Positions 9,217 to 63,758 of a stretch of 64,000 nt of DNA are shown piece after piece (within the stretch, counting starts at the first letter, position 1; the number at the start of each line of letters is the position of its first letter). Origin of the DNA: a virus; the IMG/VR virus record IMGVR_UViG_3300035698_031678, positions 1 through 64,000 of that record. The stretch is one strand, 5' to 3'. The notes below the pieces were generated by a model. It had not been told where the DNA came from, did not search any database, and worked only from the letters and a program-made list of their open reading frames with translations. The position numbers and the translations under genes were made by a program.

Positions 9217-12135
9217 TTAGAATAATGGTGAAAAACTTATAAGGTTGCTGTCTAGCTTCTCTACCTTTAGTGCGAAAAAGACTAAATTCAAAGGATCTAG
9301 AATCATCTTAGAAAATTGAGCTTCCCAATCAATCTCTGGGGCTATTTCCATTGGATAATCTCCAACATTAAAACCAAAGTACTTAAGGTTTTTATCTTTT
9401 GTTAGAAAGTACTGTATCTTAGTACCATCCTTTATGTCTGGGTATTGGGTTAAGAACATCTTGTTAGAAGGCATATTCCTCATGTGATTGTATGATGCTG
9501 CTGCTCTAACATTTGCTGGAGTACCTGACAAAAGACTTATTTCTGGATAGTGAGAAATACAATAGGCGTGATACTTATTTAATCTTTCAGCAATACTAAC
9601 GTTTTCGACACCAGCTACTTCAAACCCTTCTCTTATATTTCTTACTATTTTTACTATATTAGTGTAGCTCAAGCCTTCTCCCTCGTACATTATAGCAGTA
9701 ATTATAGTCCTCAAGCTCTCTCTAATGTATTTGGGATAACTACTTTTGTTTACTGGAAGCCCTTTAACCTGTATATTGCTTTCTGGCAGCATTGCAGTAC
9801 CATCATCCCAAATTGGATTCTTTATATAGTGTTTTTTGCCAGTCCATAACATGTTTTTGTTAATTTGTTCTAATCCTAAGGAATAGCTTTGACTACCATC
9901 TTGCATATTTGGATTAGCATTATGTTTAACACAATAATCAAAAAAAGTTCTCTTAAAGAAAGGTTGAAAGCAAAATTCATCCATAAATAAGAAAAATAAA
10001 ACCTTATGGTAGACTTTTTTATCACCTTGATACAAGTCTAAGTTGATCCTTTGTGCAGCAACACATTCTAGAGAAAGTTTTTCCAGATCAACTTTTCCAG
10101 ATTCTATTAATTCATCCCAATCTATAGAGGAATATATTGTACCCAAAGAAGTCATTATAGAATCGGTATCAGCATATTTAACTACTGGATTTTTACTGTC
10201 GAACGTTTTTGGAATATTTATGCTATTTGCTATACCCATTTTTTCATGTAAATCGGTGTCTGTCCAAAATGAAAAAGAAGAATCTTCTTCGGGTTTACCA
10301 AAGTAATCATTAACTTTACTAATAGCATGTTTAATAACCATTCTACTTTGAGTTGTAACACTTTCAGCAACCTCTTTGTTGTACAATATAAATCTAGCGT
10401 AACCAACAACACCGTACATCGAGTTCATAATAATCTTTAGGGCATCACTAAGGTTTTTAGCGCTTATCTTAGACCTGTTTAACATTCTGAGAACAGTTTC
10501 AATGTCAGAGTTTTCTGGCACTTCTATATTCCATTCTTCGAGTCTATCCTCATAGCCTTTAATAGAGTTATTTTGTTTCAGTGCTTCGTAGACAGCACCC
10601 ATATCAGCAGCGTTCCTCTTTTCTTTTACTCTACCGTTAAATAGAGACCATATAAGGTCATTTAAACTACTGTTTTGATTCTTGTCATATATAGTACCGT
10701 TAGCGGTTATAGACATATCATCTGTTATAGGGCTTTCTTCGTTAAAATCATTATAATAAACAAGTTCTTCAGACCTGTCAAGTTCATTTATCTCATTATG
10801 GATTCTACCTTTTGGTGTAGTATAAGTGTTTATTTTACTAGGATGCAATCTTCCTAATTTAGAATCAACTCCCATGTTAAAAGCCATCATGCCAGCTGGA
10901 AAGAAAGAAGTAAAATCGTGTATTAGAACGTCATTGTGTAATCCAGTTACAGGCGCTAATACAAAACCACCAGAATAAGTGCCAGTTGGATCGTCACCAT
11001 ATTCTGGTACTAGCATCTGATTTCTTTCTTTTTTATAGTAATCCGAAAACAAGGTGTTAGCCACTGCACTAGCGTGGAAACCATCAAAATGATCAACTTT
11101 ACCAACTGTACTTATAGCATGCAATGTAGAGTAAGTGTCTAACTCTTGATCTATTAGCTGAACAATTACAGGATCAATAATGGCGTACAGTAAGAAATCT
11201 TTAGGGTCAGATATGTAGAGTTCTGCTAGTGAACCTTGGAAAGGAACTTTTTTAATTCCGACAACTAATTCACCTATATTATCTAAGGAAACATTTGTTT
11301 TTAACTTTACAGATCTATCAAATTCTTCAAATACCTTCATGTAGTCCATGATAGGTTTGTGCATTGGTAACTCTATATTGTGTTTAACATCTCTTTGGTG
11401 CTTGTCAGATAGAGACCAATTAAATGTGTTACCAGTTGGACTCATTCTAGAGTACTCAACACCTAACCTCTTGCATCTATTAGAAATGTATCGACAATCA
11501 AACTTTAGGTAATTCCAACCAAGTATTAAGTGAAATTTCTTAGACCAATTGTATATGTAGTCTTCTAGTAAAGATTTTTCAGACTCATAATAGAGGTAAT
11601 GTAGTTTGTATTTTTTCTTTAAGTGAGTCTTTTTAATGTCGTTTAAGTAAACGTTAGCTCTACGCTCTAGGGTTTGTATTTCTAGCTCGTTTAAAGAAAT
11701 TAGACCTTGAAGCCAAACGTTACCCTCTTCGTCACACCAACAATTGGTAACTATTGGGTGCTTAGCTTCTTCCTCTTCTGGAAATTCGTCTGGAGAATAT
11801 ACCTCTATATCGGCAAAGGTTTTCTTAGGTGGTGTAGTAGAAAATATCTTATCTAATGTTCTTTTTGGTAGATCATTTAAAATCTCGATCTTTCTAAACT
11901 TATTAAGCCTTCTAGCTGGAATTCTTTTAATCGTTTTCCCTTTGTGAGACTTAAATTTTCTGTCTTTCTTTAGGTCAGATGGGTCGCAATGAATGTAATT
12001 GTAAAGTTGGTCTCTCCTTAGAGGCAACTTTATCATCTTTAATTCTCCAAAGTCTTTGTCCCAATATGAAATGAATAATGCTTGATCAGAATATCCGCTA
12101 GTAGCTTTAACCGTTAATTGTTCTAAGTTAACCAT
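9217..12135 (-). CDS. polB: Family-B DNA polymerase with 3'-5' exonuclease (T4 gp43-like)
   Basis: ExoI DIEV, ExoII GWNYLKFD, ExoIII YAIID; motif A DFTSFFP, motif B KIIMNSMYG, motif C YADTDS; KKHY. Confidence 0.95.
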   Translation of the reverse strand: MVNLEQLTVKATSGYSDQALFISYWDKDFGELKMIKLPLRRDQLYNYIHCDPSDLKKDRKFKSHKGKTIKRIPARRLNKFRKIEILNDLPKRTLDKIFSTTPPKKTFADIEVYSPDEFPEEEEAKHPIVTNCWCDEEGNVWLQGLISLNELEIQTLERRANVYLNDIKKTHLKKKYKLHYLYYESEKSLLEDYIYNWSKKFHLILGWNYLKFDCRYISNRCKRLGVEYSRMSPTGNTFNWSLSDKHQRDVKHNIELPMHKPIMDYMKVFEEFDRSVKLKTNVSLDNIGELVVGIKKVPFQGSLAELYISDPKDFLLYAIIDPVIVQLIDQELDTYSTLHAISTVGKVDHFDGFHASAVANTLFSDYYKKERNQMLVPEYGDDPTGTYSGGFVLAPVTGLHNDVLIHDFTSFFPAGMMAFNMGVDSKLGRLHPSKINTYTTPKGRIHNEINELDRSEELVYYNDFNEESPITDDMSITANGTIYDKNQNSSLNDLIWSLFNGRVKEKRNAADMGAVYEALKQNNSIKGYEDRLEEWNIEVPENSDIETVLRMLNRSKISAKNLSDALKIIMNSMYGVVGYARFILYNKEVAESVTTQSRMVIKHAISKVNDYFGKPEEDSSFSFWTDTDLHEKMGIANSINIPKTFDSKNPVVKYADTDSIMTSLGTIYSSIDWDELIESGKVDLEKLSLECVAAQRINLDLYQGDKKVYHKVLFFLFMDEFCFQPFFKRTFFDYCVKHNANPNMQDGSQSYSLGLEQINKNMLWTGKKHYIKNPIWDDGTAMLPESNIQVKGLPVNKSSYPKYIRESLRTIITAIMYEGEGLSYTNIVKIVRNIREGFEVAGVENVSIAERLNKYHAYCISHYPEISLLSGTPANVRAAASYNHMRNMPSNKMFLTQYPDIKDGTKIQYFLTKDKNLKYFGFNVGDYPMEIAPEIDWEAQFSKMILDPLNLVFFALKVEKLDSNLISFSPLF

Positions 12136-28228: not shown

Positions 28229-29587
28229 ATGATAAAAAAGAATAAATTAAACTTCTTACTAGATGGTTGCGCTGGTTCTTCAGGCAAAGGTAAAATGGCT
28301 GCTTTTCTTGTTAAAAATAATAAGATAGATTACCTGGTAACTTCTAATACTGCCAATGCTTCTCACACTGTTGTAGAAAAAGGTAAAGAATATGTTTTTA
28401 AGGTACTTCCTAGTGGGGTTTTATATCACGAGAAAATAGAAAAAGTCTTTATTGCAGATGGTGCTGGATTTGTTGTTGCAGACCTTTTTAAGGAAATTGA
28501 AATGACTGGTATTCCTTTGGAAAAAATCTTCATATCACCAAGGGCAGCAATTATTACCCAAATAGACAAAGATTACGAAAACGGTCTTTGTGATTTACAA
28601 GGTGAATATTTTGAGACCCGACAAGATGGAACTCTTAGAACTGGAACTACTGCTAGTGGTTCTGGCGCTGTTCTTGCTAAAAAAGTACTAAGAATAAAAA
28701 ATCTTGTAACTGCTGGAGATTTGGAAGAACTCAAACCGTTTATAACGGATGTGGGTACTGAAATAATGAAAATAAATGGTAAAAAGACAGGTCTTTTTGA
28801 AATAGGGCAAGGTTACCCACTTTCTAACAACCATCCAATGTTTGCCCCATTTACTACTAGTAGAAATGTTACTGTGGCTGCTGCTCTAAATGATGCCATG
28901 CTAAGCCCTAGTATAGTTGGTAATGTTTTTATTAATTTTAGGACTTTTCCTATTAAGATACACAATTACAAGTATCTAGCTACAGAAGATAAGGAATACT
29001 CTTACCCAGCCAGTAGCGCAGCTTGGGTAGAAAAAAACCATTGCCCTCACCACACCATTGTGAGTGATGGCGTAACAATCACTGTTAATATCTTCAAAGA
29101 CACCTTTCTTTCTTACTACGAAAAAGACTTTGTTTTAAACGAAAGAATAGATTCTCATAGTGGCGAATTTTACCCAGATCAAGAAGAAATCACATGGGAA
29201 GAATTGAACAGCAGAATAGGTGATCCAGAGCCACCTATATTAGAATGTACAACTCTTACAAAACTACCTAGAAGAGTTGCAGAGTTTTCAAAAGAGAACC
29301 TAATAGATGCAGTTGTTCACAATGTATCACCTTTTGACACTTTTGTTAGCGTAAATTTCGCTAATTATGTAGATCCTGTACTGGAAGATTGCCATGGATC
29401 TTACAAGTGGTCAAATTCAACAAAATTCAACGATTGGTTAGTTGAAAACATAGTTAAAGTTCAAATGACCTTATTAAAAGATTATGACATCTTATTTGGA
29501 ATTGCGCTTATAGGTACAGGAGCTGAAACTGATTCTACTATTACTGTAGATGAGTATTCTACCACTAACAATACTATTACTGGATAA
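28229..29587 (+). CDS. purZ: PurZ-like N6-succino-2-amino-dAMP synthetase (adenylosuccinate synthetase family)
   Basis: GSSGKGK (Ser at the PurA Asp13 position), NASHT, GTTASG, PFTTSR, RTFPIKI, SGEFYPDQEEI, TTLTKLPRR (Leu at PurA Arg303), NFANY (replacing PurA TKLD). Confidence 0.85.
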   Translation: MIKKNKLNFLLDGCAGSSGKGKMAAFLVKNNKIDYLVTSNTANASHTVVEKGKEYVFKVLPSGVLYHEKIEKVFIADGAGFVVADLFKEIEMTGIPLEKIFISPRAAIITQIDKDYENGLCDLQGEYFETRQDGTLRTGTTASGSGAVLAKKVLRIKNLVTAGDLEELKPFITDVGTEIMKINGKKTGLFEIGQGYPLSNNHPMFAPFTTSRNVTVAAALNDAMLSPSIVGNVFINFRTFPIKIHNYKYLATEDKEYSYPASSAAWVEKNHCPHHTIVSDGVTITVNIFKDTFLSYYEKDFVLNERIDSHSGEFYPDQEEITWEELNSRIGDPEPPILECTTLTKLPRRVAEFSKENLIDAVVHNVSPFDTFVSVNFANYVDPVLEDCHGSYKWSNSTKFNDWLVENIVKVQMTLLKDYDILFGIALIGTGAETDSTITVDEYSTTNNTITG

Positions 29588-30080
29588 TTTGAATTCTAAA
29601 ACAAACCCTGGTTCTAGCGTGCAAAAGCTAGAACCAGTTTTAGAAATCTACACTGATGGCTCTTGTTGGAATAAAGGTAAAAACAAATCATATAATTTAT
29701 CCTGTTCTGTAGCTGTTTTTGTTCTAGACAACAAAATAATAGAAAAATTAGTAACCATAAGAAACCATACAACTAGTAATGTTGCCGAAATAGATGCCAT
29801 AATATTAGCTCTAGAGGTGGCTTGGGATTTAATGTACTTAAATGTAAAAATCTACACTGATTCTGAATATGCTATTAAAAGGCTGACGAGAGATATGGAT
29901 TCAGAAGTTAATTTTTCTAGTAAGTTAAAGTACGAAGGCTTTCATAACGCTATGGAAATAACTTTTCAGCATGTTAAAGGTCATAACGGTAATAAATACA
30001 ACGAAATAGCAGATAACCTCTGTAGGACTATTAGAAAAAAACACCAAAGTATAATAAAAGATTTGGATTATGAAGGGTAA
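29550..30080 (+). CDS. rnhA: Ribonuclease HI
   Basis: IYTDGSC, TSNVAE, IYTDSEY, HVKGHNGNKYNEIADNL. Confidence 0.92.
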   Translation: MSILPLTILLLDNLNSKTNPGSSVQKLEPVLEIYTDGSCWNKGKNKSYNLSCSVAVFVLDNKIIEKLVTIRNHTTSNVAEIDAIILALEVAWDLMYLNVKIYTDSEYAIKRLTRDMDSEVNFSSKLKYEGFHNAMEITFQHVKGHNGNKYNEIADNLCRTIRKKHQSIIKDLDYEG

Positions 30081-31947
30081 GCCTGAAGTAAATAATGTTT
30101 GGACAACAGCCAAAGTGCATGCTCTTTTAAAAGACTTTAACAGAACTGGAGTTATACCTGATCTCAATCCATTTTTTAAAAGAGACGTTAAAAGAAGAAA
30201 AGGTGGTTTAGTTTGGGAATACACTAGAGAGGAGATTTTAGAATTAGCAGCTTGCCAATCAAATGTGCTTAGATATGCAAAGCACTGTACAGTAATGACC
30301 GAAAAAGGTCTGCAAAAAATAGTATTAAGACCTTACCAGGTAGTAGTGCTTAAATTATTGCAGATTAACCCATTCTTTTTATATCTTGCTAGTAGACAAA
30401 TTGGTAAAAGTATAGTCATAGCAATATTCATTGGTTGGTTAACCACATTTTTTCCTGATACGCCCTGTCTTTTAGGTAGCGAAAACCATCATAAAGCTAA
30501 AGATTTAAAGAAGAAACTAGATGTCATGATATTTAGTATGCCCCTGTATATGCAAAATGGAGTGGAATATCATTCTACAATGAGAACAATTTGGGATAAT
30601 GGTAGCAGTGTAGTAAGTGAGGCAACCACAGAGAACTTTGGGGTTTCTGGTTCATACAAGGTTGTTTACGCTGATGAATTTGCATTACTGGAAGCATATC
30701 TACAAGACGCTATTATAACACACCTTACGCCAACCATGGACACATTTGGTGACGATGCTAGGTTTATAATAAGCACAACACCTAGAGGTAAAAAGAACAA
30801 GTTCGCAAGCATGTGGTTTGATTCTTTAGAAGGTTTAAACAAATTTGGAAACTTTACCACCAAGTGGTTTGAAATAGATGGAAGAGGTGCTAATTGGAGA
30901 AAAGATAAGGTCTCTTTAATGGGTGAAGATGGTTTTAGTCAAGAATACGACCTAAATTTTGATGTAGACAGTACTCTGCTGTTATTGCCAGAGATTCAAA
31001 AGGATATTACAGATAAAATAGAAAGCTATACTTATTACAAAAAAATAAGTATAGAAATATTAAAAAATTACATACTACCTGATAGAGAAAACAACGTATC
31101 TAACATAAACAAAAATGAGTTAGACGAAGAAGCTTTCTATGAAAAAATAAAACAAGACAAATTTGAAAATATATTTTGTGTAAAAGATGGATACAGCATA
31201 GACAACCTGGCTGACCCTTCTAGACAATTTGTCATATCTACTGACCTTGCAGAAGGAGTTGGCAAAGATTTTAATGAAGCCAACATTTTTGAAATTGTTT
31301 TATTAAATCTTAGTAAGGCTTCCCATGGTTCTTACACAGTTACAGATGAGACTTCTTTGTTTGGTTTAAAACAGGTTGCTTATATCAGGACTAATTTATT
31401 AGAAGTAGAAGACTTTGCAAAATTTTGTTATTATATTATTGCAGCTACGCAAAATCCTGACAATTATAGAATGGCTTTAGAGGTTAATTTTGAAGGAAAT
31501 ATGTTTATAAAGACATTGTTTGAGGTTAACGGTGAAAACAATGTTTTAGACCCAAGTACTATGATGGTTGAGTTTCCTTGGAACATGGAATTTGATGATG
31601 CTCTTACTTTTAAAATGGGTATAAAACAAACTAACAAAACAAAAGTTAGAGGTTCTAAGAAATCTAAGAAATTTATAGGAAATGGTAGAATAGAAATAAA
31701 TGATGATAAAACTGTGAGAGAGGCTTGCGGTTTTGGTAAAGATAAGAAAGGTAATTATAACGGTACTACTAGGAATGATGATTCATTTATGACCGTAGTA
31801 AATGTCTCTCATTATTTTGAAAGTGAGTACTTTGTTGATCAAGTAGAAGAATTAATTGAAGGTCTAGATGATGAGACTAAAATTTTCATAGATGAACTAG
31901 TACAAGGTGAGGATGAACTATTAACAAATTTTGGTGGGAATGCGTAA
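30070..31947 (+). CDS. terL: Terminase large subunit (T4 gp17-like)
   Basis: LRPYQ, SRQIGKS, YADEFA, STTPRG, FSQEY, DLAEGVGKD, RNDD. Confidence 0.93.
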   Translation: MKGKPEVNNVWTTAKVHALLKDFNRTGVIPDLNPFFKRDVKRRKGGLVWEYTREEILELAACQSNVLRYAKHCTVMTEKGLQKIVLRPYQVVVLKLLQINPFFLYLASRQIGKSIVIAIFIGWLTTFFPDTPCLLGSENHHKAKDLKKKLDVMIFSMPLYMQNGVEYHSTMRTIWDNGSSVVSEATTENFGVSGSYKVVYADEFALLEAYLQDAIITHLTPTMDTFGDDARFIISTTPRGKKNKFASMWFDSLEGLNKFGNFTTKWFEIDGRGANWRKDKVSLMGEDGFSQEYDLNFDVDSTLLLLPEIQKDITDKIESYTYYKKISIEILKNYILPDRENNVSNINKNELDEEAFYEKIKQDKFENIFCVKDGYSIDNLADPSRQFVISTDLAEGVGKDFNEANIFEIVLLNLSKASHGSYTVTDETSLFGLKQVAYIRTNLLEVEDFAKFCYYIIAATQNPDNYRMALEVNFEGNMFIKTLFEVNGENNVLDPSTMMVEFPWNMEFDDALTFKMGIKQTNKTKVRGSKKSKKFIGNGRIEINDDKTVREACGFGKDKKGNYNGTTRNDDSFMTVVNVSHYFESEYFVDQVEELIEGLDDETKIFIDELVQGEDELLTNFGGNA

Positions 31948-42012: not shown

Positions 42013-42969
42013 TTAAAATTTAATGAATGAATAATTTAACGAATTAGATAATATTTCAGTTTTTTTGTTTATTAATATTTCAGACTTGTCTAGATAAGAA
42101 TATTCATTTTTTAAACTAGTTCCAAGAAATAATTTTCCATCTGTATTAAGTGTTATATTCACACCGTTAACCACCAGATTTTCCATAGCATTTATCATGC
42201 CTGATTCATCAAATATTTTGGTAGTTATATTAGAGTTTGGACACATTTCCAAACATACGTCATTATGACTTAATAATTCCATAGTCTGCATGTTTTTATA
42301 GGCTTGCACGCCATGACCTATTCTTTTTACCCTTAACTCATTAACTGCATATTCTATTTCTGAATTACCATCCAAAGGTAATTCTCCAGCATGTACCGTA
42401 AGACCAACTTTGTCAGAGTTGTGAAATATGAACATATATGCTTTCCTTAATTTTTCCATATCAGAAAGTCCGCAAGTAGCACCACTAGCATCAAAGCCTA
42501 CAATACCAAAATTTTCATACTTTACCGCTTTCCTGGCTAATATCAAAGATTCTTCCTCTGTAAAAGATTTGTCGGTTGAAATAATGATTCCAGCATGAAC
42601 ATTAAAGGCATCTTTTGCTCTGTTCAAACCTATACAAGCCTCTAGAATTATAGTATCTAAATCGTACAAGGCGTCATTATTTCTAAACATTGGGTTGAAC
42701 CTAATTTCTATGCCATCTATACCATCATCGTAAGCACTTTTAACTGCAGCATATATGCTCTCTCTTACACCCATTGGAGTACTTTGAATCATGTGAGTCA
42801 ATTTGTACTTATTGAGATACTCATTGTGATTTTTAACGCTAGTAGCAGAGAATACATTACGAAAATCACTGTAGTTTTTGAAACCTGTGTTTATTCCTTG
42901 TAACTTTGCTATTCTCCAAAGTTCTTCTGGGCTTACCATAGAACCTAAGTGAGCATGTAAATCAATCAT
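42013..42969 (-). CDS. add: Adenosine/adenylate deaminase family (amidohydrolase)
   Basis: DLHAHL, EIRFNP, VGFD, TVHAGE, RIGHG, EMCPNSN, LNTD. Confidence 0.9.
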   Translation of the reverse strand: MIDLHAHLGSMVSPEELWRIAKLQGINTGFKNYSDFRNVFSATSVKNHNEYLNKYKLTHMIQSTPMGVRESIYAAVKSAYDDGIDGIEIRFNPMFRNNDALYDLDTIILEACIGLNRAKDAFNVHAGIIISTDKSFTEEESLILARKAVKYENFGIVGFDASGATCGLSDMEKLRKAYMFIFHNSDKVGLTVHAGELPLDGNSEIEYAVNELRVKRIGHGVQAYKNMQTMELLSHNDVCLEMCPNSNITTKIFDESGMINAMENLVVNGVNITLNTDGKLFLGTSLKNEYSYLDKSEILINKKTEILSNSLNYSFIKF

Positions 42970-56315: not shown

Positions 56316-59300
56316 TTATTTTAAAAAATCATCTATAGCTGAAGTAGCATCATCTGCAGCCTTGTTTAAATTTTTGGAAATATCTTCCTCAAAACCTTTT
56401 ATCTTTTCTTTATGGGCTTTGATTTGGTTTTCTAACTTTAACTTAACATCAACGTCTTCAGTTCTAGAAATTTCTTCCTCTTTTTCTGCAATTCTATTTC
56501 TCTGCTCTTTTATTTTAGATAAGATATTTGCTTCTGATTCTTTAGACTTTTGATCTTGTAGTGATTCAAGTTCAGAATCTATTTTGTCTAGTTCAGACTG
56601 CTTAGTGTCTTTGTCCAAGTTCTGATCTCCTGAAACGGTCTTTTTGTTATCTTTTAAAGACTTTATTTTTTCATCTAGAGCGGATTCGTTCATTGCATCA
56701 GAAACATTGTGCTTAACATTCATGGTTTCTAAGACTTCTTTGATTTTATCCATATCAGAATCAGAAACATTTTTGAAGACTAATTTTTTTCTATCTCCTT
56801 CTGACTTTTCAACTTCAGTACTTAAAATACCAGTCTCTATTATGTCTCCCATAAAATTATCTGCATCAGAAGCAGAATTAAAAGTTACGGTTCTATCGCT
56901 AGAATTTGACTCATCTAAACTTTTCACCAAGTTGTATCCATTGGTTTTAATGTCTAAATCCATTTCTTCCTTAGAATCAAATCTTTCAAGATGTAAGCCA
57001 TCGTTATCAAAAAGAAAATAATCTTCACCTTCTTTTTTCATGGTAACTCTGTTATCTTCATATAGCTCTTCAGAAATTTCATGACCAAAATTAGCATTCA
57101 ACATGTCTTTGTCTTCTTCTATAACAACGTCTGTACAATTTGACTCAAACAGAACTGTTTTTATTAGTGCTATTTCTCTATCGAAGAAACTTTCGTAGAG
57201 GTTGGTAAATTGATATGAATTCTTTGACTTTCTTGTTAATTTAATGTTACTACCATTAGGGTTTCTTTTGGCAATAGCTTCATTAAGGTGTGATACCAAA
57301 GAATCATCAGAATCATATTTAAAGGCTTCTAGCTTTTCACACTCAACTAAGATACCATAGAATCTTTCAATGTTATCATAGATAAGAGGATAATTAGCAA
57401 GCTCTTCTTTGTCTATCCAAGCGTGATCTTGAACTTCATCATCAGTATATTCTGTTTCTTGAGTAGTAATTTCACCCATAAAGTAGTTAGATATACTACC
57501 TTCATCATTAGCGTATTCTCCAACTCTTACTGGATTTATAATGTCTAATCCTACTTCCTCTTTACATTCTCTAATGCAACCTTCTATAGATGTTTCGCCA
57601 GTCATTACTTTACCACCTGGAAAACCCCATTTACTAGGTTCAAAGTCAGATTCTGAAGATCTTTGCATTAACAAATATTTTCCTTGTTGATCTCTGACAA
57701 TCATATCAGCGTAAATTTGCATTGGAGAATCTATACCCATTTCTAATGCTGCTTCACTAAGGTCTTTAGCGTGTTTTTTAGCATAGTTTAGCCCTTCTTT
57801 TATACCAACATTTTCTTTTATAACCTGACCTATTTTACCACCTTCATAAGGGTGTAAGTCAAATTTACTAGAAGACTGGCTTCTGATTTTAAAGTAGAAC
57901 TCTCTACCAGATTCGTCTTTGATAGTTACATCTTTACCTGAATCACCTTGGGTATTAGATGTTTGGGTAAACTTAGATTCGTTTAAGTTACCTTTTACTA
58001 TTTTGCTAAGCTCCTCTTCATCTAACCAAATGTTTATTGGTCTACCTTCATTCATTTTAAAAACACAACTTACGTCTCCGATTTTACCGACTCTAACTAC
58101 TTCGTTATTACCGATTTTTTGTGGTGGAGTTTTGAAACTTGTTATGTTGAAGTTGAAGTGTTTGTTTATTTCTTCTACAGTTTCTAACTTGGATTCAGAA
58201 TCGTCTAAGGCAAAAATGCAAATAGGGTCTACTATCTCAAGTGTATTAATAACAAAGTCTATAAATTCTTCTTGATTTTCTTTAATCAGAGCATACTCTT
58301 CTAAAGTGTGATAAGAAACTATTGTGCCATTGTATATCTTAGTGAAGCTTTCATCAATGTCAGAAAGGTCACTTTTAACCTTAAATAAGTAGTCAGTCAT
58401 ATAAACACTACCACTTTTAGTAGTTACAAGGTTTTCATCAACAGATTTAACTGTAAACAATGTATTTGGATGATCTGAATGACCGACCAGGTCACCAGCT
58501 CTTATTTTGCTTTTAGTACCAACCATTTTTGAATTGACATCAAGATTTAAAGGTGGATTTACTGGGTCAATATTCCATTCTTTAAAGCTTTTTGATTCTG
58601 ACATGTTCAATGTGTTAGCCAGAGTTAGGTCAAATTTCAGAACGCCATCTTTTAAAGAAAAAACGTAATATCCCTTAACTAACAGGTTTAATTTTTTAGC
58701 CCAGACTTTAATTTCATTCTTTATCTCCTTACCCAATTTAGTAGAAAAGAATCTTTCACCATAGGGAGTGTTGTAATTTTCAGATTTTTTAATATCAATA
58801 TCAAAACGATATACTAAATTAACCTTAGAACTATCGTTAACAAGTTCGCCATTTACATTACCAGTCTCTGAGGTGTTACCAATTTTATCTTTTAAACCAT
58901 TAATATTTGATTTAACCAAGTCTTGAGCCTTAGTAAGGTTTTTAGAAATTATTTTTTCAACATCTTTAATTTGATCTTCTATTACTTTTTTAAAAGAGTT
59001 TTTATGTCCATCAAATCCAACAGATTTCTTACCATACCAATCATCCATACTTTCAGGCAAGTTTTTCTGGTAATTTAAAAAAGGGACTCTGAAAGTTTCT
59101 AGAATTTCATTAATCCCTAAACCATTTGATAAATGTTCAACATACAAAGATTTTAAAGTAGATTTTGAGTTAAGAGTAGAATTTGAAAACACACTACTAA
59201 AGAATTCTTCATGGTTATTTTTAGAATTTCTAGATTCTAGTAACTCACCATATCCAACTGCATTACCTCTGTTTGCCATAGCTCCAGCAGCTGCTCCATC

Positions 59301-60389
59301 AGTTTCGTCTAAACGATCATATTCATCATTGAAGTTTAAGCCATACTTTTTGTAAAATAGATCGTATGACTCTTCATTTCTTTCTTCCTGACCATCAAAT
59401 TCATCAGGATCTACCCCATCTAATAAAGGTAAGTATGCATCTTCTAGGTCTGAAATACTGTTAAAAGTCTTTTTAGACTCGAAAAGGTTGGTAATTCTGT
59501 TTTCTTTTAGCTCACCAAGTATAAGAACGGTTTTTTTAGAAGATCTTGATTCTGATAACCTTTGAGCAGCGAAAACGTTTCTGTTTATTAGTTTATTTTT
59601 TAAAATTTTAACAGCAGATTCATTTAAATTAAGAAGATTGTCTTCATATTTGTCTAGTATGGCAGCTTTGATTTCTTCTTCTGAACCTGAATCGTCAAGA
59701 CCCATTTCAGCAGCCATAACTTCAATTTCAAACAGGTTTAAAGACTCTAAGTGTCTTTTAAGGCTATCAGGATCTTTGAACTTTGATTCATTTAAACCTA
59801 GAAATTCTTTTCCTTTTTTAGATATGGCATATTGCTCTATACCCATCACTGTATTGTTCATGATAAAGTCTTTACTTTGGGCTTTGTCAATCAGTTCTTT
59901 TGGAAATTCTCTATTAATTTTAGACTGGAATATTCTATCATCAACATTATCTGGTGTGATTGCGTGGAGAAGTTTAATAAGGTCTTTGTCCGAATCAGCA
60001 GATTCATTTAAGTCCATAAATTCTTTCCCCATCATGGATATAGCATATTGTTCTATGCCCATCACTTTATTGTTCATGATAAAGTCTCTACTTTGGGCTT
60101 TATCTATAAGTTCTTTTGGAAATTCTATGTCAATTTTAGATTTAAATATTCTATCATCAACATCATTTGGAGTAATTGCGTGAAGAAGTTTGATCATGTT
60201 TTTGTCTGAATCATTCGATTCGTTTAAACCGCCTACGCCTTTTATACCTTTTTCTTTTAAAAAGAATTTAATCTCTTCTTCAGCATCTTCTTTAGACATT
60301 ATAGAAATTTCATCTTGTATCAACATCCATTCATCAAATAATCGAGGATAATTGTTAGCTATGTCTAAGTTTATGAGTTCTATATTCAT
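56316..60389 (-). CDS. LNES-punctuated multidomain protein with a Nudix hydrolase domain
   Basis: Nudix box GGKVMTGETSIEGCIRECKEEVGL; more than a dozen L/M/I-x-E-S/A motifs; 72-aa tandem duplication; C-terminal coiled coil. Confidence 0.75.
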   Translation of the reverse strand: MNIELINLDIANNYPRLFDEWMLIQDEISIMSKEDAEEEIKFFLKEKGIKGVGGLNESNDSDKNMIKLLHAITPNDVDDRIFKSKIDIEFPKELIDKAQSRDFIMNNKVMGIEQYAISMMGKEFMDLNESADSDKDLIKLLHAITPDNVDDRIFQSKINREFPKELIDKAQSKDFIMNNTVMGIEQYAISKKGKEFLGLNESKFKDPDSLKRHLESLNLFEIEVMAAEMGLDDSGSEEEIKAAILDKYEDNLLNLNESAVKILKNKLINRNVFAAQRLSESRSSKKTVLILGELKENRITNLFESKKTFNSISDLEDAYLPLLDGVDPDEFDGQEERNEESYDLFYKKYGLNFNDEYDRLDETDGAAAGAMANRGNAVGYGELLESRNSKNNHEEFFSSVFSNSTLNSKSTLKSLYVEHLSNGLGINEILETFRVPFLNYQKNLPESMDDWYGKKSVGFDGHKNSFKKVIEDQIKDVEKIISKNLTKAQDLVKSNINGLKDKIGNTSETGNVNGELVNDSSKVNLVYRFDIDIKKSENYNTPYGERFFSTKLGKEIKNEIKVWAKKLNLLVKGYYVFSLKDGVLKFDLTLANTLNMSESKSFKEWNIDPVNPPLNLDVNSKMVGTKSKIRAGDLVGHSDHPNTLFTVKSVDENLVTTKSGSVYMTDYLFKVKSDLSDIDESFTKIYNGTIVSYHTLEEYALIKENQEEFIDFVINTLEIVDPICIFALDDSESKLETVEEINKHFNFNITSFKTPPQKIGNNEVVRVGKIGDVSCVFKMNEGRPINIWLDEEELSKIVKGNLNESKFTQTSNTQGDSGKDVTIKDESGREFYFKIRSQSSSKFDLHPYEGGKIGQVIKENVGIKEGLNYAKKHAKDLSEAALEMGIDSPMQIYADMIVRDQQGKYLLMQRSSESDFEPSKWGFPGGKVMTGETSIEGCIRECKEEVGLDIINPVRVGEYANDEGSISNYFMGEITTQETEYTDDEVQDHAWIDKEELANYPLIYDNIERFYGILVECEKLEAFKYDSDDSLVSHLNEAIAKRNPNGSNIKLTRKSKNSYQFTNLYESFFDREIALIKTVLFESNCTDVVIEEDKDMLNANFGHEISEELYEDNRVTMKKEGEDYFLFDNDGLHLERFDSKEEMDLDIKTNGYNLVKSLDESNSSDRTVTFNSASDADNFMGDIIETGILSTEVEKSEGDRKKLVFKNVSDSDMDKIKEVLETMNVKHNVSDAMNESALDEKIKSLKDNKKTVSGDQNLDKDTKQSELDKIDSELESLQDQKSKESEANILSKIKEQRNRIAEKEEEISRTEDVDVKLKLENQIKAHKEKIKGFEEDISKNLNKAADDATSAIDDFLK
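59796..60227 (-). repeat. Two tandem 216-bp (72-aa) units, each starting with LNES
   Basis: Units 60012-60227 and 59796-60011 are highly similar (IKLLHAITP..VDDRIF.SKI..EFPKELIDKAQS.DFIMNN.VMGIEQYAIS..GKEF). Confidence 0.95.
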
Positions 60390-63206: not shown

Positions 63207-63758
63207 TTAAGTATCTAGCCAAATTTTTTCTGATAAACTCTTTAAGTTGAATTTAGGGTCAGTTATTTCAACATCAAAATCCTTGAAATCCTTGAATTGC
63301 TCCCAATCTGTAGTCATTCTTTTCTCAACATTGTCAGCGTTTTCCCTTTGCGATAATCTTTCTTCTCTTACATTGTCGCTTATGTTAATATAGACAACTA
63401 TCAATTTACTATTCCTTAAATGCATTGGTAACCTGTTAACGCCAGCTGGAGTCATTATGAAAAGGTTAGATTTATTAAACTCTTCTTTAGTCGTTCCATA
63501 AACAAAACCGTTAGGAAAGTACTTGAATTGCATGAATTTATCTTCACTTATCATTTTTAACATCATGTTTTCTGTAACAAAATGATAGGTTTTTCCTCCT
63601 ACTTCACCAGTTCTTGGTGGTCTAGTAGTATAGCTTATTTCAGTAGTAATATCGTTCAGTTGACTTAGCAAGTTCTTAGCGTAATCTTTACCACTTCCAC
63701 CTTGCCCTACTAAGATTATCTTTTTGTCTCTTAGCCTATTATCTTGTTCCTTATTCAT
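63207..63758 (-). CDS. gmk: Guanylate kinase
   Basis: LVGQGGSGKD, SYTTRPPRTGEV.G..YHFV, YGT. Confidence 0.92.
   Translation of the reverse strand: MNKEQDNRLRDKKIILVGQGGSGKDYAKNLLSQLNDITTEISYTTRPPRTGEVGGKTYHFVTENMMLKMISEDKFMQFKYFPNGFVYGTTKEEFNKSNLFIMTPAGVNRLPMHLRNSKLIVVYINISDNVREERLSQRENADNVEKRMTTDWEQFKDFKDFDVEITDPKFNLKSLSEKIWLDT

What the first reader, a model, noticed from the sequence alone, without database searches (positions are those of the whole stretch)
28229..29587. PurZ (2-aminoadenine / Z-genome synthetase) in a T4-like jumbo phage
Seen: an adenylosuccinate-synthetase fold with G16-S17-S18-GKGK, T341-TLTK-L346-PRR and N376-F-A-N379, plus SGEFYPDQEEI and PFTTSR. Established: PurA has GDEGKG (catalytic Asp13), Arg303 and a TKLD GTP-specificity motif. 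PurZ replaces these with Ser, Leu and NFxN, using dGMP, Asp and (d)ATP to make the dZMP precursor. All three diagnostic switches are PurZ-type here, and the GTP-type Asp seen in PurA is absent. The characterised Z-genome phages I know are small sipho/podoviruses, mostly with the family-A DpoZ. Inference: this contractile-tailed jumbo phage may substitute Z for A in its DNA.
Basis: partly seen in the sequence, partly recalled or inferred. Interest (0 to 1): 0.95.

Follow-up and report, generated by a model that had tools for sequence, protein, structure and literature searches.

The report
Long-form PurZ in T4-like phage
A 129-kb T4-like phage from a salt lake carries a longer, divergent version of PurZ, the enzyme that small phages use to replace adenine with 2-aminoadenine (Z) in DNA, plus its own follow-on enzymes, so its DNA may contain Z, but nobody has measured this.

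Summary
It belongs to the PurA/PurZ superfamily. In my tree it sits inside the ATP-type PurZ clade (UFBoot 91), in a distinct long-form branch (UFBoot 98) found on 80-280-kb phage contigs and in the cultured Flavobacterium myovirus MaF61 (56% identity).

It keeps Ser in place of PurA Asp13, the PurZ Asp-loop TTLTKLPRR, the ATP-type N-F-x-N-Y pocket and Ile at the 2'-OH gate. However, it fails NCBI's curated PurZ model (133 bits against a cut-off of 300).

The classic helpers are missing: no PF04447/MazG hydrolase, no DpoZ, and only a weak, distant HD-domain protein. Instead the phage encodes adenylosuccinate lyase (PurB), guanylate kinase, an adenosine-deaminase-family enzyme, ribonucleotide reductase (RNR) and a family-B polymerase. 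PurB and guanylate kinase are the two steps that known Z phages borrow from the host.

"Jumbo" is wrong: the genome is complete at 129,295 bp.

My best reading, at about 0.6, is a self-supplied dGMP-to-dZDP route. Whether Z is in the virion DNA is untested, and MaF61 makes that directly testable. Earlier notes of this scan report similar long PurZ plus PurB, deaminase or kinase sets on other genomes.

The parts
28229..29587 (+). Long-form PurZ-type synthetase (452 aa). Has a roughly 60-aa insertion at about residues 245-305, after the PIKI strand, and a C-terminal extension.
42013..42969 (-). Adenosine-deaminase-family protein (318 aa) with metal and catalytic residues kept. Proposed, by inference, to remove the adenine ring or feed purines into the guanine pool.
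   Evidence: Pfam PF00962, 136.5 bits. H5, H7, H193, E196, H219 and D277 are invariant in 7 of 7 phage copies. Found in 9 of 21 long-PurZ records against 0 of 16 canonical ones. Only 7 of 50,697 phage records have a homolog.
63207..63758 (-). Guanylate kinase (183 aa). Candidate dZMP/dGMP kinase, a step that host GMP kinase performs in known Z phages.
   Evidence: PF00625, 72 bits. Found in 11 of 21 long-PurZ records (all 11 of G000-G009 plus MaF61) against 0 of 16 canonical ones. 79 of 50,697 phage records have a homolog. Host role of GMP kinase: passage.
9217..12135 (-). Family-B DNA polymerase (972 aa), the only replicative polymerase family found. No family-A polymerase (DpoZ) is present.
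   Evidence: PF00136 and PF03104. No PF00476 in the genome.
56316..60389 (-). 1357-aa protein with an internal NUDIX domain (residues 893-999). The only pyrophosphohydrolase-type candidate in this genome for a MazZ-like role; very tentative.
   Evidence: PF00293, 59.9 bits. No MazG and no PF04447.
29550..31947 (+). Downstream neighbours: RNase H (29550-30080) and T4-type large terminase (30070-31947). They show that the gene lies in a packaging and late-gene neighbourhood.
   Evidence: TerL lies within 10 kb of the homolog in 17 of 46 long-form loci. MaF61 has PurZ-like immediately before TerL.

Best explanation
The ORF encodes a long-form member of the ATP-dependent PurZ lineage.

Proposed pathway:
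1. [quoted passage not shown] Inferred.
2. Phage PurB (genome 99412-100812, outside the window): removes fumarate to give dZMP. Inferred.
3. Phage guanylate kinase: makes dZDP. Inferred.
4. A host nucleoside-diphosphate kinase makes dZTP, and the T4-type family-B polymerase inserts Z opposite T. Inferred.

This lineage lacks the DatZ dATPase and the MazZ/DUF550 hydrolase of small Z phages. It carries instead an adenosine-deaminase-family enzyme and/or an HD_3-type hydrolase, together with RNR. I infer that these lower the adenine-nucleotide pool and push purines towards guanine.

Shown here: the gene, its fold, its residues, its place in the tree, and the co-occurrence of the partner genes. 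Inferred: every substrate, and the presence of Z in the virion DNA.
For: 1. Phylogeny. IQ-TREE (124 taxa, 346 columns, LG+F+R5, 1000 UFBoot), rooted on 4 canonical PurA. The query lies in a long-form clade (n=22, UFBoot 98). That clade joins a short G-S-S/NFQY group (joint UFBoot 96). Both lie inside a clade of 99 (UFBoot 91) that also holds phiVC8, S-2L and PMBT28 PurZ. PurZ0 of Arthrobacter phage Bennie and the cellular short paralogs branch outside it. Characterised dGMP-using enzymes therefore bracket the query.

2. Residues.
- S17, T341-T344, R348, N376/F377/N379/Y380 and I244 correspond to S-2L S23, T273-T276, R280, N305/F306/Q308 and V241, the 2'-OH steric gate.
- The KLPRR string is identical to that of S-2L.
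- 7 of 12 PurZ residues named in the dZ-enrichment study are identical. F295 and Y244 are specific to the ATP-type clade.
- S17 is invariant in 42 of 42 long-form proteins.

3. Context.
- PurB occurs in 9 of 21 long-form records against 0 of 16 canonical ones. It lies within 10 kb of the gene in 15 of 46 long-form loci.
- In the 150-kb relative L022 the order is PurZ-like, PurB, MazG, TerL, all within 7 kb.
- Guanylate kinase: 11 of 21 against 0 of 16.
- Deaminase: 9 of 21 against 0 of 16. It is adjacent to the kinase in G005 and G006.
- An adenine-destroying enzyme next to an adenine-making PurA would be futile. It makes sense if A is being replaced.

4. All 9 of 9 capsid-related IMG/VR contigs of at least 100 kb carry the gene. 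At least one homolog hosts an intein.
Against: - NCBIfam PurZ model NF038379: 132.9 bits against a cut-off of 300. This nearly ties with the archaeal-type PurA model NF003295 (127.7), and E. coli PurA scores 126.7 on the PurZ model.
- Foldseek ranks P. horikoshii PurA (TM 0.90) level with phiVC8 PurZ (0.87), so the fold does not discriminate.
- Classic Z-cluster partners are missing. The genome has no PF04447 and no MazG.
- The HD_3 match is weak (23.9-24.9 bits), sits in a 307-aa protein 92 kb away, and does not hit DatZ.
- Without proven dATP removal, a PolB would give mixed A/Z at best.
- F12 to Ala15, P144 to Lys, G256 to Asn, S273 to Glu, and S-2L P336 to Ala432 all differ.
- Ser17 and Thr341 also occur in cellular paralogs of unknown function.
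- No Asp-type archaeal PurA was in my tree, and some deep nodes have only UFBoot 58-74.
- GC is 32%, whereas dZ contigs were reported to have higher GC than canonical contigs.
- ADA-family enzymes can also deaminate diaminopurine (recalled), which would work against Z.
- No chemistry exists for any member of this clade.
Confidence: 0.6

Rival explanations
1. It is a PurA-like auxiliary metabolic gene. Together with phage PurB it converts IMP (or dIMP) to AMP (or dAMP) to feed replication of a 68% A+T genome. The DNA is ordinary.
For: PurB co-occurs and is often adjacent. The protein fails the curated PurZ cut-off and scores almost the same on an archaeal-type PurA model. P. horikoshii PurA is the top structural match. 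There is no DatZ/MazZ cluster. The deaminase, PurA-like and PurB set formally equals the purine nucleotide cycle (established biochemistry). Phage PurA on unmodified contigs exists (14 of 17 in the dZ-enrichment study).
Against: Those unmodified-contig PurA clustered with E. coli PurA; this protein does not. All 4 canonical PurA and P. horikoshii PurA keep Asp at the position of S17, whereas 42 of 42 long-form proteins have Ser. The guanine-reading Asp of the (T/N)KxD motif is Asn, with Phe and Tyr as in ATP-type PurZ. The Arg contacting the 2'-OH is Leu, and the gate residue is Ile. Encoding an adenine-ring deaminase beside an adenine-making enzyme is futile.
Confidence: 0.15
2. It aminates a guanine nucleotide, but the outcome is not full genome replacement. 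Either Z is only partly incorporated because dATP is not cleared, or the substrate is GMP (with RNR reducing the 2-amino-ADP product), or the product serves another purpose such as countering a host defence.
For: The residue and tree evidence is the same as for the best explanation. No DatZ-type dATPase was recognised. RNR is present. Ala15 replaces the aromatic residue next to the 2-amino pocket. Published Z phages tie dATP removal to full substitution (passages).
Against: Ile244 at the S-2L V241 position argues for a deoxy substrate. All 7 of 7 complete long-form genomes have a deaminase or an HD_3 hit at E no worse than 0.01, so some removal of adenine is plausible; two of these (G003, G004) rest only on hits below the cut-off. 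S-2L PurZ itself can burn dATP.
Confidence: 0.2
3. It makes a different product, using another amino-acid donor or another 6-oxopurine, and so leads to a purine modification other than Z.
For: It is a divergent branch with a structured 60-aa insertion beside the active-site loop. G007 and G010 are complete but lack PurB. Four of the 12 signature residues differ.
Against: The Asp-binding loop TTxTKLPRR is kept and matches S-2L. PurB, which acts on succinyl adducts, co-occurs. The insertion is not conserved: alignment A1 has no invariant or nearly invariant column between K248 and S311.
Confidence: 0.05

Closest known systems
PurZ (DgsS) of Vibrio phage phiVC8 and PurZ of cyanophage S-2L (PDB 6FM1/6FKO/6TNH, 7ODX)
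   Same: Best sequence match among solved structures (1e-23). Same short PurA-type fold (TM 0.80-0.87). Shares Ser for Asp13, the TTxTK(L)PRR Asp loop, the N-F-x-N/Q-Y adenine pocket, an aliphatic 2'-OH gate and an insertion at the same point after that gate. Falls in the same ATP-type clade (UFBoot 91).
   Different: Only 24-30% identity. About 100 aa longer, with a 60-aa insertion and a C-terminal extension. Has G-S-S-GKG, not G-S-T-GKG, and Ala in place of Phe12/Tyr21. Scores below the curated model cut-off. Its host genome is a 129-kb PolB myovirus, not a 39-45-kb podovirus or siphovirus with DpoZ or PrimPol. It is not next to DatZ/MazZ.
Classic Z-cluster (PurZ + DatZ + MazZ/DUF550, host PurB and GMP kinase)
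   Same: Same proposed chemistry from dGMP to dZTP.
   Different: Here the two host steps (PurB and guanylate kinase) are phage-encoded, and the two phage helpers are absent or replaced. Counts, long-form records against canonical records: PF04447 0 of 21 against 14 of 16; HD_3 5 of 21 (weak) against 15 of 16; PurB 9 of 21 against 0 of 16; guanylate kinase 11 of 21 against 0 of 16; ADA family 9 of 21 against 0 of 16.
PurZ0 (GTP-dependent; PDB 7VF6; Arthrobacter and Gordonia phages)
   Same: Ser at the Asp13 position, Thr in the Asp loop, short fold.
   Different: PurZ0 keeps Glu after the Ser and the guanine-reading Asp (Bennie reads T-M-x-D). It branches with the cellular paralogs, outside the ATP-type clade. 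The query matches 7VF6 only at E 7e-4.
Flavobacterium phage MaF61 ORF141 'putative adenosuccinate synthetase' (PQ858689)
   Same: 56% identical over 96% of the query. Same long form. Lies directly upstream of TerL. The genome also has PurB, guanylate kinase, an HD_3 protein, MazG and PolB. It is a myovirus by electron microscopy.
   Different: 168 kb; no ADA-family gene. The paper does not discuss the gene or the DNA chemistry: 'adenylosuccinate' and 'adenosuccinate' each occur 0 times in its main text.
Canonical and archaeal PurA (E. coli 1ADE; P. horikoshii 2D7U/5K7X)
   Same: Same superfamily and catalytic core (His46, Gln194, Arg155, Thr141 and the P-loop Lys are kept). The P. horikoshii enzyme is the top structural match.
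   Different: PurA has GDEGKG, TGRRRR and a K/D guanine-reading motif. TIGR00184 scores 75.9 bits against a cut-off of 395.55.

Membership tests
PurZ (ATP-dependent succino-amino-deoxyadenylate synthase) | Scores above the curated cut-off of NCBIfam NF038379 (300 bits) | tested here: not met
   132.9 bits. phiVC8, S-2L and PMBT28 score 397, 350 and 408. E. coli PurA scores 126.7 on the same model.
PurZ (ATP-dependent succino-amino-deoxyadenylate synthase) | Ser in place of PurA catalytic Asp13 | tested here: met
   S17; invariant in 42 of 42 long-form proteins. Not unique to PurZ: PurZ0 and cellular short paralogs have it too.
PurZ (ATP-dependent succino-amino-deoxyadenylate synthase) | Adenine-type NTP pocket (phiVC8 F295, N297, Y298; S-2L N305, F306, Q308) in place of the guanine-reading K/D motif | tested here: met
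   N376-F377-A378-N379-Y380. Phe in 22 of 22 long-form tree members; PurZ0-like proteins have Gly or His plus Asp.
PurZ (ATP-dependent succino-amino-deoxyadenylate synthase) | Deoxy-specific sugar pocket: loss of the Arg303 contact, and an aliphatic gate residue drawn in by an insertion | tested here: inconclusive
   The sequence has L346, I244 and an insertion at the same place. Distances in the model were not measured.
PurZ (ATP-dependent succino-amino-deoxyadenylate synthase) | Branches with characterised PurZ, apart from PurA and PurZ0 | tested here: met
   Clade of 99, UFBoot 91; FastTree 0.97 with PurZ0 Bennie added. Caveat: no Asp-type archaeal PurA sequence was available for the tree.
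PurZ (ATP-dependent succino-amino-deoxyadenylate synthase) | Catalyses dGMP + Asp + (d)ATP to dSMP | not testable with these tools
   Needs an enzyme assay.
Z-cluster / Z-genome phage | purZ co-conserved with datZ (HD dATPase) and mazZ/DUF550 | tested here: not met
   No PF04447 and no PF03819 in the genome. phmmer with S-2L DatZ and MazZ and the phiVC8 HD protein finds nothing; PMBT28 hydrolase gives only 13.5 bits to a 307-aa HD_3 protein. Canonical records: 15 of 16 have HD_3 and 14 of 16 have PF04447.
Z-cluster / Z-genome phage | Virion DNA has dZ in place of dA | not testable with these tools
   The only runs holding the sequence are assembled contigs of salt-lake metagenomes.
Canonical PurA (TIGR00184) | Above the cut-off; Asp13; GTP-reading Lys/Asp; Arg303 | tested here: not met
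   75.9 bits against 395.55. The aligned positions read S17, F377/N379 and L346.
PurZ0 (GTP-dependent) | Keeps the guanine-reading Asp; branches with actinophage PurZ0 | tested here: not met
   N379. Bennie PurZ0 falls in the other clade.
T4-like myovirus | gp23 capsid, gp20 portal, T4-type TerL, tail sheath, PolB | tested here: met
Jumbo phage (over 200 kb; conventional threshold, recalled) | Genome over 200 kb | tested here: not met
   129,295 bp, direct terminal repeats, CheckV 100%.

The most novel reading that the evidence does not exclude
A whole lineage of T4-like, PolB-replicating myoviruses of 125-170 kb writes its DNA with Z instead of A, by a self-contained route. The lineage includes hosts in Bacteroidota, as shown by Flavobacterium phage MaF61. 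The route is long-form PurZ, phage PurB and phage guanylate kinase. An adenine-ring deaminase (or an HD hydrolase) replaces DatZ, and purines are funnelled from A through I and G to Z. This would be a second, independently assembled solution to the adenine-exclusion problem. It would also extend Z-DNA to large contractile-tailed phages and to a new host phylum.
Probability: 0.35. Interest if true: 0.85.

Novelty: new variant of a known kind. Interest (0 to 1): 0.7.

Why it matters
The papers I could read place Z-DNA in small siphoviruses and podoviruses of Pseudomonadota, Cyanobacteriota and Actinomycetota. Those phages use DpoZ or PrimPol and rely on DatZ plus MazZ.

If the long-form enzyme makes dSMP, then Z-DNA, or mixed A/Z DNA, also occurs in 125-170-kb T4-like phages with family-B polymerases. 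It would be made by a different helper set, one that brings along the two steps previously thought to be host-supplied.

That would bear on three things:
- how adenine is excluded without DatZ;
- whether T4-type polymerases and packaging motors handle Z-DNA;
- how many metagenomic 'PurA' genes on large phage contigs should be re-annotated (253 relatives at 90% clustering; 74 representatives at E no worse than 1e-30).

It is directly testable, because MaF61 is in culture on Flavobacterium sp. B330.

Tried and rejected
- Jumbo phage: rejected (129 kb, complete).
- Canonical PurA: rejected on the tree, residues and models.
- PurZ0: rejected.
- Ser17 as a sufficient diagnostic of PurZ: rejected. 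Short G-S-E-GKG proteins occur in cellular genomes beside a full-length canonical PurA.
- DatZ, MazZ, DpoZ and PrimPol homologs in the genome: none by phmmer, PF03819, PF04447 or PF00476. NDT/DmtZ (PF05014): none.
- HD_3 protein as DatZ: unsupported. Its only PDB match is 2GZ4 at 8e-5.
- Fold search: cannot separate PurA from PurZ.
- The insertion as a conserved metal site (NHCPHH): not conserved in A1.
- Megablast of 20 kb of the window against phage isolates: no match.
- Pfam on 20 further ORFs of 64-92 kb gave only lysis enzymes. Nine more ORFs gave DnaB-like and PIF1-like helicases only.
- Reciprocal search for the deaminase in IMG/VR. The single protein found nothing. A 3-sequence alignment found 3 loci, two of them its own inputs, so no base rate could be drawn.
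- Capsid-based search for relatives lacking the gene. The single protein found nothing. The alignment found 16 loci; all 9 of at least 100 kb already carry the gene. Six fragments (14-52% complete) were checked and have none, which is uninformative. The seventh, L129, was not checked.
- Sequencing runs: 3 salt-lake DNA runs, contigs only, no RNA holder listed. Read laying was not used, because contigs cannot show Z.
- Literature: searches found no paper in the held library that describes PurZ in a myovirus, or PurZ with phage-encoded PurB, guanylate kinase or deaminase. Subscription papers (Zhou 2021, Sleiman 2021, Pezo 2021 and the PurZ0 paper, all recalled and not seen) and all supplements were not readable. 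The supplementary tree, network and tables of PMC12884076 and of the bioRxiv study may already include long-form members. Another paper states that over 2000 viruses are predicted Z phages by PurZ homology.
- Not done: a tree with Asp-type archaeal PurA (no such sequence could be fetched), measuring pocket distances in the model, and checking the PolB motif-A note.
Full report
**The observation**

One search shows a single 452-codon ORF at 28229-29587 on the plus strand.

It matches Pfam Adenylsucc_synt (6e-20, N-terminal part only) and PHROG 1211, labelled there '2-aminooxy adenylosuccinate synthetase' (9e-33).

Among solved structures the best sequence matches are, in order (titles):
- the phiVC8 enzyme (6FM1/6FKO/6TNH), about 1e-23;
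- Pyrococcus horikoshii PurA, 1.6e-17;
- S-2L PurZ, 7.9e-16;
- E. coli PurA, 4e-7;
- PurZ0 (7VF6), 7e-4.

An AlphaFold model built on 42 homologs is confident (pLDDT 92.9, pTM 0.91).

E. coli residue numbers are recalled.

**The genome**

The window is the first half of a 129,295-bp virus record with direct terminal repeats. It is rated 100% complete and has 32% G+C.

It encodes:
- a T4-type portal, gp23-type capsid protein, T4-type large terminase and tail sheath;
- a family-B polymerase;
- RNR large and small subunits, an NAD-dependent ligase, RNase H and helicases.

So it is a T4-like myovirus, but not a jumbo phage. The only sequencing runs that hold it are salt-lake metagenome assemblies.

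**The family**

The protein has 253 relatives at 90% clustering. It has 1512 representatives at 50% clustering, 74 of them at E no worse than 1e-30.

The nearest relatives (37-59% identity) are 400-480 aa long. Many lie on contigs of 100-280 kb. Some are labelled human-gut phage MAGs of about 150 kb.

The only cultured carrier found among 50,697 phage records is Flavobacterium phage MaF61: 56% identity, 168 kb, a myovirus by electron microscopy. Its paper says nothing about the gene.

Shorter relatives (330-390 aa, 25-31% identity) are ordinary PurZ proteins on 30-60-kb contigs.

**Is it a PurZ?**

By curated model, no. NCBIfam's PurZ model gives 132.9 bits against a cut-off of 300. Three known PurZ proteins score 350-408, and E. 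coli PurA scores 126.7 on that same model. The archaeal-type PurA model NF003295 gives 127.7.

By fold, it cannot be told. P. horikoshii PurA (TM 0.90) and phiVC8 PurZ (TM 0.87) are level.

By phylogeny, yes in the wide sense. How the tree was built:
- I started from 221 sequences: loci, representatives, named references, and cellular short forms.
- I dropped rows shorter than 320 aa or longer than 500 aa (fragments and intein-bearing forms).
- I thinned unnamed rows to below 52% identity.
- I added three canonical PurA taken from genomes, giving 124 taxa and 346 columns.

IQ-TREE (LG+F+R5, 1000 UFBoot), rooted on the four canonical PurA, gives:
- a clade of 17 G-S-E-GKG proteins that keep the guanine-reading Asp (UFBoot 91);
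- a clade of 99 with the N-F-x-N/Q-Y pocket (UFBoot 91).

Inside the 99:
- the long-form clade (22 taxa, with the query and MaF61; UFBoot 98) pairs with a short G-S-S/NFQY group of 14 (joint UFBoot 96);
- the other 63 include phiVC8, S-2L, PMBT28 and vB_BpsS-140 (UFBoot 64).

When PurZ0 of Arthrobacter phage Bennie is added, it falls among the 17 (FastTree 0.989).

Characterised dGMP-using enzymes therefore lie on both sides of the query's branch. The caveat is that I could not obtain an Asp-type archaeal PurA sequence for the tree. I rely on the published statement that PurZ has a possible archaeal origin.

**Residues**

Reading S-2L contacts onto A2:

| S-2L PurZ | This protein | Role |
|---|---|---|
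| N49/A50 | N43/A44 | base pocket |
| T132 | T141 | base pocket |
| Q190 | Q194 | base pocket |
| R146 | R155 | contacts the α-phosphate from the partner subunit |
| V241 | I244 | 2'-OH steric gate |
| T273-T276 | T341-T344 | tip of the Asp loop |
| R280 | R348 | near S23 |
| N305/F306/Q308 | N376/F377/N379 | adenine pocket |
| P336 | A432 | adenine stacking; differs |

The Asp-loop string KLPRR is identical to that of S-2L.

The dZ-enrichment study names 12 PurZ residues. The query has 7 of them (S14, P233, Y244, W252, T262, F295, Y298). One is a conservative change (I34 to Val). Four differ (F12 to Ala, P144 to Lys, G256 to Asn, S273 to Glu).

Only F295 and Y244 separate the ATP-type clade from PurZ0-like proteins.

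The short cellular proteins from Nitrospira, a Halobacteriota MAG, Planctomycetota and Paenibacillus have them too. In Nitrospira sp. and Paenibacillus these proteins sit beside a full-length canonical PurA, so they are paralogs of unknown role (two further genomes that agree are unpublished).

P. horikoshii PurA itself has GDEGKG, TGRRRR and LDKYD.

**Context**

I compared 21 long-form records with 16 canonical PurZ records.
- Long-form set: the query genome, MaF61, and 19 of the 45 long-form IMG/VR loci. I chose contigs of at least 80 kb and kept two of the five near-identical 150-kb contigs.
- Canonical set: 13 of the 35 short-form loci, chosen as contigs of at least 38 kb, plus S-2L, phiVC8 and PMBT28.

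| Family | Long-form (of 21) | Canonical (of 16) |
|---|---|---|
| PurB (PF00206) | 9 | 0 |
| HD_3 (PF13023) | 5 (3 over cut-off; ORFs of 234-339 aa) | 15 |
| PolB (PF00136) | 10 | 0 |
| MazG (PF03819) | 9 (7 over cut-off; none in the query genome) | 1 |
| PF04447 dATP/dGTP pyrophosphohydrolase | 0 over cut-off | 14 |
| ADA family (PF00962) | 9 | 0 |
| Guanylate kinase (PF00625) | 11 (every one of G000-G009 and MaF61) | 0 |

Many of the 21 records are fragments, so absences there mean little.

Among the 7 complete long-form genomes (G000, G003, G004, G005, G007, G010, MaF61):
- 5 have PurB;
- 6 have the kinase;
- all 7 have either the deaminase or an HD_3 hit at E no worse than 0.01. Two of them (G003, G004) rest only on hits below the cut-off.

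In phage isolates generally, homologs of the deaminase occur in 7 of 50,697 records and homologs of the kinase in 79 of 50,697.

Physical linkage:
- PurB lies within 10 kb of the PurZ-like gene in 15 of 46 long-form loci.
- In a 150-kb relative the order is PurZ-like, two small ORFs, PurB, further ORFs, MazG, one ORF, TerL.
- The deaminase and the kinase are adjacent in G005 and G006.

In the query genome the genes are scattered:
- PurZ-like at 28.2 kb;
- deaminase at 42.0 kb;
- kinase at 63.2 kb;
- PurB at 99.4 kb;
- RNR at 110-112.7 kb;
- HD_3 protein at 120.9 kb.

**Reading**

Published work says that host PurB and GMP kinase complete the route from PurZ's product to dZTP. This lineage carries both of those enzymes itself. 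That fits a demand for high flux through exactly those steps.

If a 68% A+T genome were written with Z, half of all its nucleotides would have to come from the guanine pool. This is my arithmetic: 16% G plus 34% Z.

An adenine-ring deaminase would serve two purposes at once. It would remove adenine, and, through host IMP dehydrogenase and GMP synthase, it would refill guanine. That part is inference.

The same deaminase makes little sense beside an enzyme meant to make more adenine. This is my main contextual argument against the plain-PurA rival.

Against the Z reading:
- the curated model fails;
- no recognisable dATPase or dGTP pyrophosphohydrolase is present in this genome;
- G+C is low;
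- there is no chemistry for any member of the clade.

**Verdict**

- The protein is a new long-form branch of the PurZ lineage, with a different set of partner genes.
- Probability that it makes dSMP: about 0.6-0.65.
- Probability that virion DNA carries Z at all: about 0.5.
- Probability of full replacement: about 0.35.

**Earlier notes of this scan**

AI notes from this scan, which I did not check, describe comparable long-form PurZ sets with PurB, a deaminase or a kinase on other genomes. They also flagged the deaminase, the NUDIX polyprotein, the insertion and a PolB motif change in this genome.

I used the deaminase note as a lead and tested it myself. These notes are not independent evidence.

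**Papers seen**

- bioRxiv 10.1101/2025.10.22.683976: abstract, sections 7 and 8, passages.
- PMC12884076: abstract, sections 4 and 25, and a term search with no hits for myovirus, jumbo, Flavobacterium or PurB.
- PMC8342488: passages and section 8.
- PMC13269007, PMC13128860, PMC12783734 and PMC8515928: passages only.
- PMC8599892: search listing only, start of the abstract.
- No supplements were seen.

Noticed in passing
L093-L107 (GTDB genomes G035, G037; also G033, G034, which are unpublished): Short (about 340-365 aa) G-S-E-GKG 'adenylosuccinate synthetase' proteins group with phage PurZ0. In Nitrospira sp. and Paenibacillus sp. genomes they sit beside a full-length canonical PurA. In a 0.6-Mb Saccharibacteria genome only the short form was found. 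So these are cellular PurZ0-like paralogs of unknown function.
   Followed up: partly
P0125 (799 aa); similar lengths for P0132, P0133, P0135, P0136, P0138, P0140, P0141, P0174, P0242: Some long-form homologs are about 750-820 aa and match the query in three stretches. P0125 has a Hint/homing-endonuclease (intein) domain starting near residue 150. Only P0125 was checked.
   Followed up: partly
window 28967-29158 (residues about 245-305 of the ORF): There is a roughly 60-aa insertion at the point where S-2L PurZ has its 9-aa insertion after the 2'-OH gate. It is confidently modelled as strands plus a helix. Its sequence, including NHCPHH, is not conserved across the clade, and P0037 largely lacks it.
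   Followed up: partly
G003-G009 (records behind L022, L023, L027, L029, L032, L033, L035): The family-B polymerase of these relatives is split into two ORFs that lie far apart in most of them (adjacent in G009). One covers roughly the first third of the polymerase profile and the other the rest. The query and MaF61 have one ORF of about 970-1000 aa.
   Followed up: no
G001, G010, G015 (ADA-family matches); G007 and G009 (guanylate kinase matches): Several matches contain in-frame stop codons (TAA, TAG, TGA). G010 and G015 are classed as proviruses of about 250 kb. This could mean pseudogenes, match overhang or an alternative genetic code.
   Followed up: no
window 56316-60389 (-): A 1357-aa protein carries a NUDIX domain at residues 893-999. 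If it is injected, it could act on nucleotide pools at the start of infection.
   Followed up: partly
I did not check it.
   Followed up: no
genome ends (1-100 and 129196-129295): The first and last roughly 70 bases of the contig overlap, which is consistent with the direct terminal repeat or circular-permutation call.
   Followed up: partly
W01 (MaF61) 69245-69727 and 71710-71904: In MaF61 the guanylate kinase and the HD_3-domain ORF lie about 2 kb apart.
   Followed up: no
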